DNA from: a virus
Lineage: Duplodnaviria > Caudoviricetes
Virus record (IMG/VR): IMGVR_UViG_3300032174_000005
Span: 743 to 64,742 of that record
DNA length: 64,000 bases
Direction: 5' to 3' (one strand)
The notes under the pieces are model-generated. The model saw nothing but the letters and a program-made list of their open reading frames with translations. It searched no databases and was not told the origin of the DNA. The translations under genes were made by a program, and so were the position numbers. Of the stretch, positions 34,816 to 35,262 are shown piece after piece (the stretch's first letter is position 1; each line of letters opens with the position of its first letter).

Positions 34816-34867
34816 TGGCGCGGGGTGTCGCACTCAAGCGCAGTGATCTGCCGACCACTCACCCCGC
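34816..34867 (-). ncRNA. 52-nt mini tRNA-like element with CCA end
   Basis: GCGGGGTG/CACCCCGC stem + G + CCA enclosing hairpins AGTGGTC-GGCA-GATCACT and GCGC-TTGA-GTGC. Confidence 0.6.
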
Positions 34868-35262
34868 ATGGCGCTCCCGGCAGGGCTTATACCTGCATCT
34901 TCGGCTTTAGAGACCGACGCACATACACTTGTGCTACGGGAACGTGGGTAAAGACGATAATTCTCAAGAACGCTTCGAATCTGTCCTGCAAGTGGAACTG
35001 TGGCAATCGCGGTGAATCCCAAATCGAAATCAGGCTCATGCCAACTGAAATGAGTAATCTGATTCTCGACCAACTTGCGCTCCACCTTCATTAGACTTTT
35101 CACATTTGGCACAGCAATGAGAACAATATTAGGAATTCCTTGGATACCAGAATTATCAAGGGCTAGATGAAAAATAGCATGATTTGATTGAACGATCTGA
35201 TGCTCGATGGGAATATCGGTGCGGATAAAAACGTAAACGTAAGATTCAGTAATCTATGTCAT
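34834..35262 (-). CDS. Pth2-like peptidyl-tRNA hydrolase with in-frame TAG at codon 3
   Basis: ATG ACA TAG ATT ACT GAA... = MT*ITESYVYVFIRTDIPIEHQIVQSNHA...NIVLIAVPN...WHEPDFDLGFTAIATVP; in frame with track ORF 34834..35112. Confidence 0.8.
34869..34943 (-). tRNA. Amber suppressor-type tRNA, anticodon CUA (copy 1)
   Basis: GTTCCCG TA GCAC-AAGTGTAT-GTGC G TCGGT-CTCTAAA-GCCGA AGAT GCAGG-TATAAGC-CCTGC CGGGAGC G CCA; 75 nt cloverleaf. Confidence 0.85.

What the first reader, a model, noticed from the sequence alone, without database searches (positions are those of the whole stretch)
34834..34945. The Pth2-like reading frame runs through tRNA 1, so tRNA maturation removes its stop codon
Seen: the Pth2-like sequence appears to end at ...ENYRLY, but no stop follows. 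The frame crosses the entire tRNA (34943-34869) and ends at TGA 34836-34834 in the loop of the mini element. Inference: RNase P cleavage at the tRNA 5' end gives a non-stop mRNA, as RNase III does for arfA, so the product would be tmRNA-tagged and degraded unless ribosome rescue is impaired. This would be a second gate, and an intact message and a mature tRNA 1 could not come from the same transcript.
Basis: partly seen in the sequence, partly recalled or inferred. Interest (0 to 1): 0.8.

Follow-up and report, generated by a model that had tools for sequence, protein, structure and literature searches.

The report
Stop-less phage gene fused to tRNA
A small phage enzyme gene has no stop codon of its own and runs straight through the stop-codon-reading tRNA gene behind it, a layout kept in dozens of related phages, so making the protein and maturing the tRNA must compete for one transcript.

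Summary
On the minus strand an ORF starts at ATG 35262, has TAG as codon 3, ends its conserved domain at Tyr105 (34950-34948), then runs through the whole tRNA-CUA (34943-34869). It stops only at TGA 34836-34834, in a hairpin loop of a 52-nt CCA-ended mini element.

- **Fold:** the protein has a Pth2 (peptidyl-tRNA hydrolase 2) fold but scores below Pfam's threshold.
- **Not an accident:** among 48 distinct close relatives, 41 of the 44 with enough downstream DNA continue at least 20 codons past the domain. In 42 of 44 a tRNA or CCA-ended tRNA-like element starts within 25 nt. Only one has a stop before it.
- **Natural end:** remoter relatives stop 1-9 codons after the same motif, so the domain ends where RNase P would cut.
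- **Transcript:** a TTGACA-16-GATAAT promoter ends 6 nt before the ATG, so the mRNA is probably the leaderless 5' leader of a suppressor pre-tRNA.

The tmRNA gate is untested. The frame is kept open through the first element (stops in 4/42 loci against 26/42 and 30/42 in the other frames), which a pure non-stop model does not predict.

This scan found the same layout before on other DNA. I found no paper describing it.

The parts
35269..35296 (-). Sigma-70-type promoter: TTGACA (35296-35291), 16-nt spacer, GATAAT (35274-35269). The -10 ends 6 nt before the ATG, so a leaderless or nearly leaderless mRNA is predicted.
   Evidence: 11 of 12 consensus matches. TTGACA with at most 1 mismatch starts 33-38 nt upstream of the ATG in 28 of 45 close relatives, against 2 in a control window 100 nt further upstream.
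35260..35262 (-). ATG start of the Pth2-like ORF
   Evidence: ATG lies 1-6 codons before the in-frame TAG in 46 of 48 close relatives.
35254..35256 (-). In-frame amber codon (TAG) at codon 3, the 'first gate'
   Evidence: present in 48 of 48 close relatives, mostly as ATG ACN TAG ATY. In L014 the leader stop is TGA and the neighbouring tRNA has anticodon UCA.
34948..35253 (-). Conserved Pth2-fold domain (residues 4-105), ending ...ENYRLY
   Evidence: AlphaFold2 model with pLDDT 80.1. Foldseek against PDB: the top 10 are Pth2 or Pth2-like, prob 1.0, TMq 0.64-0.72. Viral library: RaK2 'peptidyl-tRNA hydrolase', TMq 0.88. dN/dS is 0.08-0.17 against 6 relatives.
34837..34947 (-). 37-codon tail of the ORF, encoded by the 4-nt gap, all of tRNA 1 and the 5' part of the mini element
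34869..34943 (-). tRNA 1: anticodon CUA (amber suppressor), with encoded CCA, lying wholly inside the ORF
   Evidence: ARAGORN. Rfam RF00005 at 51.3 bits. It folds as a separate cloverleaf in the 286-nt fold.
34816..34867 (-). 52-nt mini element: 8-bp acceptor-like stem, two hairpins and a GCCA end. The ORF's stop lies in the loop of hairpin 2.
   Evidence: Related elements appear.
34834..34836 (-). TGA, the first in-frame stop of the ORF
34733..34807 (-). tRNA 2: a second tRNA with anticodon CUA
   Evidence: ARAGORN. Rfam at 52.6 bits.
34671..34694 (-). Terminator-like hairpin and T-rich tail that would close the roughly 590-nt unit
   Evidence: This is a consensus scan only, and the number of hits was not above that in shuffled sequence.

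Best explanation
The Pth2-fold gene is the translated 5' leader of a suppressor-tRNA precursor, and message and tRNA are built to exclude each other on any one transcript.

A promoter placed to start transcription at or next to the AUG gives an RNA of about 590 nt. In order it carries AUG-ACA-UAG, 102 further domain codons, 4 nt, tRNA-CUA, a CCA-ended mini element, a second tRNA-CUA and a terminator-like hairpin.

Ribosomes pass codon 3 only if UAG is read as sense, most likely by the cassette's own tRNA. After that there are two fates:

- **(a) Precursor still uncut.** This is likeliest for a ribosome following RNA polymerase closely. The ribosome reads in frame through the unfolded tRNA and terminates at the UGA in the next element, giving the domain plus a 37-residue tail.
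- **(b) RNase P has already cut at tRNA +1.** The leader is then a non-stop message ending 4 nt after Tyr105, and its ribosomes need rescue by tmRNA or an alternative factor.

I think processing mainly acts as the off-switch. It limits enzyme synthesis to uncut transcripts, and rescue clears the leftovers. This is the logic proposed for selC nested in selB.

**Shown:** the anatomy, its conservation, purifying selection on the ORF, the fold, and the open frame through the first element.

**Inferred:** the transcription start, RNase P cleavage, which product is the active one, and any role of tmRNA.
For: - **Anatomy:**
- **Conservation:** of 48 distinct close relatives (profile score at least 110), 48 have the early TAG. 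Of the 44 with at least 150 nt downstream, 41 have tails of at least 20 codons. In 42 of 44 a 7-bp stem plus NCCA element or an ARAGORN tRNA starts within 25 nt of the domain end.
- **Wider set:** 113 of 147 representatives of 50%-identity clusters have tails of at least 20 residues.
- **Remoter relatives:** 31 of 40 stop within 9 codons of the motif, and only 1 of 40 has an adjacent element. The motif is therefore the natural end of the domain.
- **Open frame:** a stop lies inside gap plus first element in 4 of 42 loci in the gene's frame, against 26 and 30 of 42 in the other two frames. The gap is a multiple of 3 in 37 of 42, with values 0, 3, 6, 9, 12, 15 and 24 against 4, 10 and 11.
- **The ORF-adjacent element is a real structure where it is not a tRNA:** 11 sequences, 97% of cells paired against 63.5% in shuffles, and 14 of 15 pairs with changes on both sides.
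- **Real gene:** dN/dS is 0.08-0.17.
- **Read-through rather than re-initiation:** the codon after the TAG is AAG in L017 and GAA in L020. The one TGA leader sits beside a tRNA-UCA.
- **Published parallel:** selC nested in the selB ORF (PMC8124441, abstract read).
Against: - There are no expression data of any kind. No RNA run holds this sequence, so the start site, the cleavage and both products are all inferred.
- The loci are related. The 42 junctions reduce to perhaps 4-10 independent junction events, and in-frame indels are what any coding region would show, so the phase bias is suggestive rather than decisive.
- The tail is dictated by RNA sequence and varies from 21 to 100 codons, so it is hard to see it as functional protein.
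- The cut site falls at the native C-terminus, which fits the rival in which the non-stop message is the intended template.
- Three close relatives end inside the first element (L012, L043, L070) and one before it (L061), so an open frame through the element is not obligatory.
- tRNA 1 lacks the D-loop GG and the T-loop UUC, so how well it is processed is unknown.
Confidence: 0.4

Rival explanations
1. RNase P cutting is fast, so the non-stop leader is the normal template. Its 106-residue product is tagged by tmRNA and degraded. It accumulates only when trans-translation is saturated or impaired, for example by read-through of host UAG stops caused by the suppressor. The enzyme would then be a back-up peptidyl-tRNA hydrolase induced by rescue overload.
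For: - The predicted cut lies 0-24 nt after the last conserved codon in 42 of 44 close relatives. That is where relatives with ordinary stops end, 1-9 codons after the motif.
- The unit looks like a pre-tRNA with a coding leader.
- arfA works this way, and its full-length product is unstable (PMC8012679, passages read).
- The same review's reference list carries a title stating that the SsrA system copes with read-through caused by suppressor tRNAs. I saw the title only.
- A Pth-type enzyme fits a rescue role (fold).
Against: - In this model stops inside the tRNA would be neutral, yet the gene's frame is open through the first element in 38 of 42 loci, against 16 and 12 of 42 for the other frames. 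The junction also keeps phase in 37 of 42.
- No tmRNA or rescue gene was seen in the window (one search lists none).
- There are no RNA or protein data.
Confidence: 0.3
2. This is negative feedback on the suppressor itself. Ribosomes that get past UAG, which happens when tRNA-CUA is abundant, run into the pre-tRNA and keep it unfolded. This delays or prevents RNase P processing and exposes the RNA to decay. Suppressor output therefore falls when suppression is high.
For: - The early UAG is present in 48 of 48 close relatives, and the frame enters the first element in 41 of 42.
- The stop usually lies some 3-15 codons beyond the first element (tails compared with element lengths).
- No alternative pairing links the ORF end to tRNA 1, so ribosome occupancy would be the only way to hold the tRNA open.
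Against: - A 3-codon leader would be enough for this, so it does not explain a 102-codon enzyme under purifying selection.
- A tRNA can refold and be cut once the ribosome has passed.
- In remoter relatives the amber-gated gene has an ordinary stop and the tRNA lies up to 1.5 kb away, so feedback on processing cannot be the ancestral role.
Confidence: 0.15
3. This is a neutral by-product of compaction. An ancestor lost its stop in a deletion that butted the gene against the tRNA. The tRNA happened to be open in that frame and the tail is harmless. Descendants simply inherited the layout.
For: - Elsewhere in the same window an ORF runs through a tRNA with no sign of meaning: 42089-41640 runs through tRNA-Lys 42020-41947.
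- Tails vary in length and sequence.
- One close relative has regained or kept a stop (L061).
Against: - The layout persists across relatives down to about 45% identity. Junction gaps vary from 0 to 24 nt, and the first element can be a tRNA of several types or a mini element. The junction has therefore been remade repeatedly without gaining a stop.
- There is a frame bias of 4/42 against 26/42 and 30/42.
- 113 of 147 cluster representatives carry long tails.
Confidence: 0.1

Closest known systems
selC (tRNA-Sec) nested in the 3' extension of the selB ORF in Alphaproteobacteria (Mukai 2021, PMC8124441; abstract read)
   Same: A complete tRNA that decodes a stop codon lies on the same strand inside the C-terminal extension of a protein ORF. 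The author proposes that folding and processing of the tRNA represses the full-length protein. Both cases are known from sequence only.
   Different: Here the host is a phage and the protein has a Pth2 fold rather than being an elongation factor. The ORF also needs the tRNA's decoding to pass codon 3. The first element can be a non-decoding mini element instead of a tRNA, and the unit has its own leaderless-type promoter.
arfA of E. coli: a programmed non-stop mRNA made by RNase III cleavage or early termination, controlled by tmRNA (PMC8012679, passages read)
   Same: The ORF continues through a structured RNA that is an endonuclease target. Cleavage removes the stop, and the truncated product has the functional length. 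The gene product belongs to ribosome or peptidyl-tRNA rescue.
   Different: The nuclease would be RNase P acting on a tRNA, not RNase III on a hairpin. Nothing here shows tmRNA tagging. The open-frame bias suggests the uncut form is translated on purpose.
prfB (RF2) autoregulation through an in-frame UGA (recalled, not read here)
   Same: An early in-frame stop codon makes synthesis depend on how that stop is being decoded in the cell.
   Different: prfB senses a release factor and escapes by +1 frameshifting. Here the stop is presumably read by a cognate suppressor tRNA encoded in the same transcript.
tRNA punctuation of mitochondrial mRNAs with incomplete stop codons, and plant mitochondrial t-elements (recalled; the review PMC4394434 was seen only in a search listing)
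   Same: ORFs abut tRNAs or tRNA-like elements whose excision defines the mRNA's 3' end.
   Different: No partial stop (U or UA) is left at the junction for polyadenylation to complete. The junction reads TAC-CCAC here, and TAC, TAT or TGG in relatives.
PTH2-like genes in phage tRNA arrays (jumbo phages, PMC7824862; cluster C mycobacteriophages, PMC5966550; passages read)
   Same: The fold is the same, and so is the association with phage tRNA genes.
   Different: The passages I read mention neither the amber codon at the start nor a missing stop. In several cultured jumbo phages the homologue is unannotated or truncated in the record.

Membership tests
PTH2 peptidyl-tRNA hydrolase (Pfam PF01981) | Sequence match at or above Pfam's gathering score | tested here: not met
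   There was no hit at the default threshold. At a relaxed threshold the window protein scores 12.2 bits against a cut-off of 23. Of the 11 close relatives, 8 give weak hits, the best at E 0.0082.
PTH2 peptidyl-tRNA hydrolase (Pfam PF01981) | Pth2 fold | tested here: met
   The model has pLDDT 80.1 and pTM 0.73. The top 10 PDB matches are all Pth2 or Pth2-like (3erj, 1xty, 1q7s, 2gax and others) at prob 1.0 and TMq 0.64-0.72, and the first match outside that family has E above 0.1. Phage 'peptidyl-tRNA hydrolases' reach TMq up to 0.88.
PTH2 peptidyl-tRNA hydrolase (Pfam PF01981) | Catalytic residues and hydrolase activity | tested here: inconclusive
   The only residue-level alignment to a solved Pth (24bt_A, E 0.1) puts His-Gln of this family opposite Lys-Lys. 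That position is His in 8 and Gln or Ala in 3 of the 11 close relatives. An invariant E-P-D...G.T block is kept. Which residues are catalytic in Pth2 is recalled, not tested. Activity cannot be tested here.
Programmed non-stop mRNA (arfA type) | The ORF has no stop upstream of an endonuclease target lying inside it | tested here: met
   There is no stop between Tyr105 and tRNA +1. The same holds in 41 of the 42 close relatives with an adjacent element.
Programmed non-stop mRNA (arfA type) | Cleavage occurs in vivo, and the product is tagged or controlled by tmRNA | not testable with these tools
   No RNA run was listed.
tRNA gene nested in a protein ORF (selB-selC type) | A whole tRNA lies on the same strand inside the ORF, and this is conserved among relatives | tested here: met
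   The first element lies wholly in the open frame in 38 of 42 close relatives.
Mitochondrial-type tRNA punctuation with incomplete stop | A U or UA is left in frame at the cut, to be completed to UAA by polyadenylation | tested here: not met
   The junction reads TAC|CCAC|G here. In relatives it is TAC, TAT or TGG followed by 0-24 nt with no in-frame T or TA at the cut.
Canonical tRNA (Rfam RF00005), for tRNA 1 | Cloverleaf scoring above the gathering score, a 7-nt anticodon loop, and conserved elbow nucleotides | tested here: inconclusive
   It scores 51.3 bits against 29, has anticodon CUA and an encoded CCA. However, the D loop AAGUGUAU has no GG and the T loop UAUAAGC has no UUC (alignment). 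It is tRNA-shaped, but charging and processing are untested.

The most novel reading that the evidence does not exclude
The cassette is a self-contained translational circuit with two sensors on one small enzyme gene. An amber codon at position 3 reports whether the phage's own suppressor tRNA is active. A missing stop codon makes the native-length enzyme come only from an RNase P-made non-stop message. That product survives only when the host's tmRNA system is saturated by the read-through the suppressor causes. The phage would then switch on a peptidyl-tRNA hydrolase exactly when its own stop-codon override has overloaded ribosome rescue. This would be an arfA-like device evolved independently in viruses, using RNase P and a tRNA in place of RNase III and a hairpin.
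Probability: 0.25. Interest if true: 0.85.

Novelty: new variant of a known kind. Interest (0 to 1): 0.7.

Why it matters
- **A concrete target for unexplained suppressor tRNAs.** Phages that use the standard code often carry suppressor tRNAs with no known target. The authors of phage XacN1 looked for targets of their two CUA tRNAs and found none (PMC5852040, passage read). An enzyme gene wired to such a tRNA at both ends gives these tRNAs a target. It also suggests a natural circuit that links stop-codon decoding, tRNA processing and possibly ribosome rescue.
- **A second, much larger case of a tRNA nested in a bacterial-type ORF.** It would join selB-selC, and the unit is small enough (about 590 nt) to test in a laboratory strain.
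- **Practical value for annotation.** Gene callers either miss the gene because of the TAG at codon 3 or report it with a spurious tail that is really translated tRNA. The cultured-phage records and the protein databases examined here show both errors.

Tried and rejected
- **Genome-wide TAG recoding: rejected.** A greedy ORF set under table 11 covers 93% of the window. Stops are TGA 41, TAA 22 and TAG 19.
- **Other amber-interrupted genes: none supported.** Four candidate read-through ORFs gave no PHROG hit. That shows nothing either way.
- **Re-initiation at the codon after TAG: rejected as the general mechanism.** In close relatives that codon is ATH, ATG or GTG. In remoter ones it is AAG, GAA, AAC, GAC and others.
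- **Stop completed by polyadenylation: rejected.** See the membership test.
- **Long-range pairing between the ORF's 3' end and tRNA 1: not seen** in the 286-nt fold.
- **Mini element as a known RNA family:** Rfam gave only the two tRNAs in 33000-37000 at E up to 1. I saw the theta (HDV-like) ribozyme papers next to phage suppressor tRNAs only as abstracts in listings and did not follow them up.
- **No RNA holder listed.** The one listed run is DNA and may be the source sample.
- **Near or distant DNA matches in the phage collection:** none.
- **Not used:** Complex prediction and the protein-atlas search.
- **Searches for an earlier description** turned up no paper on a stop-less phage gene abutting a tRNA. 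Annotation tables there could bear on whether the amber-led gene was ever noted.

**Caveats on my counts**
- The domain end was projected from an HMM built on alignment A2.
- Elements were called by a perfect 7-bp stem plus NCCA, so helix 1 pairs by construction.
- Of the 107 loci, 91 have distinct cores, and duplicates were dropped.
- Four of the 48 close relatives were left out of the downstream counts for lack of sequence.
- dS is saturated (about 2), and one pair gave no estimate.
- L108-L114 were inspected by eye only and are not in the counts.

Full report
**What is in the window.** The window is nearly all of a complete 64,742-bp virus record with direct terminal repeats. On the minus strand a frame opens at ATG 35262 and has TAG as its third codon (35256-35254). 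It reads a conserved 102-residue block ending ...ENYRLY, with Tyr105 at TAC 34950-34948. It then continues for 37 more sense codons to TGA 34836-34834.

ARAGORN finds two tRNAs with anticodon CUA on the same strand, at 34943-34869 and 34807-34733. Rfam scores them 51.3 and 52.6 bits against a gathering score of 29. tRNA 1 therefore lies wholly inside the ORF, 4 nt after the Tyr105 codon.

Between the two tRNAs lies a 52-nt element (34867-34816). It folds into an 8-bp stem, two hairpins and a free GCCA end, and the TGA sits in the loop of the second hairpin (-29.3 kcal/mol, z -3.57).

**The transcription unit.** A near-consensus promoter, TTGACA-16-GATAAT with 11 of 12 matches, ends 6 nt before the ATG. 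A terminator-like hairpin follows tRNA 2. That scan is a consensus match only.

In 28 of 45 close relatives a TTGACA with at most one mismatch starts 33-38 nt upstream of the ATG, against 2 in a control window. Only 7 of the 45 have a Shine-Dalgarno-like word. The message is therefore probably leaderless, and it is in effect the 5' leader of a pre-tRNA.

A 286-nt fold of the 3' part gives three separate modules: cloverleaf, Y-shaped element, cloverleaf. Nothing pairs the ORF end with tRNA 1.

**What the protein is.** Pfam, NCBIfam and PDB sequence searches gave nothing significant for the single protein. PHROGs gave phrog_34073 (3.5e-9) and phrog_3668, named 'hydrolase' (2e-4).

An AlphaFold2 model built from 11 relatives has pLDDT 80.1 and pTM 0.73. 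It matches Pth2 enzymes and Pth2-like proteins as all of its top 10 PDB matches, at probability 1.0 and TMq 0.64-0.72, and the first match outside that family has E above 0.1. It also matches phage proteins named peptidyl-tRNA hydrolase with TMq up to 0.88.

Eight of the 11 relatives give sub-threshold PF01981 hits. 'Pth2-like' is thus right for the fold. Family membership by sequence is not met, and the catalytic residues are unresolved. dN/dS against six relatives is 0.08-0.17, with dS saturated, so this is a working gene and not a remnant.

**Do homologues stop before the tRNA?** They do not. The first five database homologues all ran on past NYRLY with tails that read like translated tRNA.

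I then collected 107 loci, including the window. They came from viral contigs, metagenome contigs and genome bins. I located the domain with a profile of alignment A2 and reduced the set to 91 distinct cores.

Among the 48 distinct close relatives (profile score at least 110; roughly 45-78% identical to the window), one search gives these results:

- All 48 have an in-frame TAG within 20 codons upstream of the domain.
- 46 have an ATG 1-6 codons before that TAG.
- Of the 44 with at least 150 nt downstream, 41 have tails of at least 20 codons, 2 have tails of 10-19 (L012, L043) and 1 has a tail under 10 (L061).
- In 42 of the 44, a 7-bp stem followed by NCCA, or an ARAGORN tRNA, begins within 25 nt of the domain end.
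- Only L061 has a stop ahead of that element.

Among the 43 remoter relatives, 31 of the 40 with enough sequence stop within 9 codons of the motif, and only 1 of 40 has an adjacent element. An independent look at 147 representatives of 50%-identity clusters shows tails of at least 20 residues in 113, of 10-19 in 10, and under 10 in 24.

The motif is therefore the natural C-terminus. A large subfamily has lost the stop and is butted against an RNase P-type substrate.

**The adjacent element.** It is a tRNA-CUA in some loci: the window, L002, L003, L005 and L010. It is a divergent tRNA-like form in L001, L006 and L007. In others (L004, L008, L009 and more) it is a mini element, with the tRNA-CUA following.

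Eleven ORF-adjacent 52-nt mini elements align without gaps and support a three-helix structure. In that alignment 97% of cells are paired against 63.5% in shuffles and 39-51% when the partner is slid, and 14 of 15 pairs show changes on both sides. Helix 1 was a selection criterion, but helices 2 and 3 were not.

Whatever the first element is, it offers an acceptor-like stem with a CCA end directly after the last conserved codon.

One part follows from the sequence and from textbook tRNA biology. A 5' cut at tRNA +1 leaves a message ending 4 nt after Tyr105 with no stop, so one transcript cannot yield both a mature tRNA 1 and a terminated message. The arfA parallel is apt on paper. There, cleavage within the ORF gives a non-stop mRNA whose product is controlled by trans-translation, and the full-length product is unstable (PMC8012679, passages).

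Nothing here shows cleavage, tagging or degradation. No RNA run is available.

One result is not predicted by a pure non-stop model. Within gap plus first element, the gene's frame contains a stop in 4 of 42 loci, against 26 and 30 of 42 for the other frames. The gap is a multiple of three in 37 of 42, with values 0, 3, 6, 9, 12, 15 and 24 against 4, 10 and 11. If ribosomes never entered the element, stops there would be neutral.

The loci are related, and in-frame indels are normal for coding sequence, so I treat this as suggestive. Even so, it tips me towards a model in which uncut precursors are translated on purpose and processing is the off-switch. That is what Mukai proposed for selC nested in selB (PMC8124441, abstract).

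**The amber codon.** It is not my assigned finding, but it is part of the same device. The phage does not recode TAG: under table 11 the ORF set covers 93% of the window, and 19 of 82 greedy ORFs end in TAG.

The early stop is conserved far beyond the stop-less subfamily. The one locus with a TGA leader (L014) has a tRNA-UCA beside it. In L017 and L020 the codon after the TAG is AAG or GAA, which argues for read-through and not for re-initiation.

Cultured jumbo phages carry the amber leader with an ordinary stop at the end: CBB, fHe-Yen9-04, Arash, RsoM2USA and ME3. In their records the gene is unannotated, truncated or split.

**Novelty.** PTH2-like genes in phage tRNA arrays are in print (PMC7824862 and PMC5966550, passages). 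A tRNA nested in a bacterial ORF (PMC8124441) and programmed non-stop mRNAs (arfA) are also in print.

Six full-text searches found no description of a stop-less phage gene abutting a tRNA. Supplements were closed.

This scan has reported the same layout several times on other DNA, with similar verdicts. Those notes are unchecked AI notes. One of them gave me the selB-selC lead, which I then verified from the abstract. I class the finding as a new variant of a known kind.

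Noticed in passing
window 35254-35262 (-); L108, L109, L110, L113, L114: The amber codon at codon 3-4 is conserved far beyond the stop-less subfamily. It occurs in cultured jumbo phages (Pectobacterium CBB, Yersinia fHe-Yen9-04, Salmonella Arash, Ralstonia RsoM2USA, Acinetobacter ME3), where the homologue is unannotated, truncated or split in the record. ME3 and Arash have a CUA tRNA within about 1 kb.
   Followed up: partly
L014:1228-1304 and the leader near L014:1480-1500: In this one relative the leader stop is TGA instead of TAG, and the neighbouring tRNA has anticodon UCA. 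The gate and the key have changed together.
   Followed up: partly
window 34816-34867 (-); 41 elements listed: CCA-ended elements of 48-58 nt come in at least three sequence classes across relatives. They lie either directly after the ORF or after the first tRNA. Hairpin 2 of the ORF-adjacent class looks like a T arm (for example GGGTTCAAGCC). Their job is unknown.
   Followed up: partly
window 34733-34943 (-): Both CUA tRNAs lack GG in the D loop (AAGUGUAU, AAAAGUU) and UUC in the T loop (UAUAAGC, UGCAAGU), as seen in the Rfam alignments. Relatives such as L003 have canonical loops.
   Followed up: partly
L007:3322-3420: The first element after the ORF is a tRNA-like sequence with a long insertion in the D region. 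Its anticodon loop reads TTTTAAC, giving anticodon UUA (ochre-reading). Neither ARAGORN nor Rfam called it.
   Followed up: no
window 41640-42089 (-) and tRNA-Lys 41947-42020 (-): A 149-codon table-11 ORF runs through tRNA-Lys(CUU). The part after the tRNA begins with an internal Met (MAARQLSL...), and the ORF end overlaps the start of the Dda-like helicase gene. This is probably a spurious N-terminal extension, and it shows that a tRNA can lie in an open frame by chance.
   Followed up: partly
window 44927-45787 (-), 47294-48061 (+), 32640-33602 (+), 16707-17318 (+): These are pairs of ORFs in one frame separated by a single TAG, so they are candidates for amber read-through by the phage's suppressors. 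None gave a PHROG hit, so nothing supports or excludes read-through.
   Followed up: partly
window 34235-34648 (+): This 137-residue ORF converges on the tRNA unit and matches phrog_24118 (unknown function) at 1e-41. It ends in TAG.
   Followed up: no
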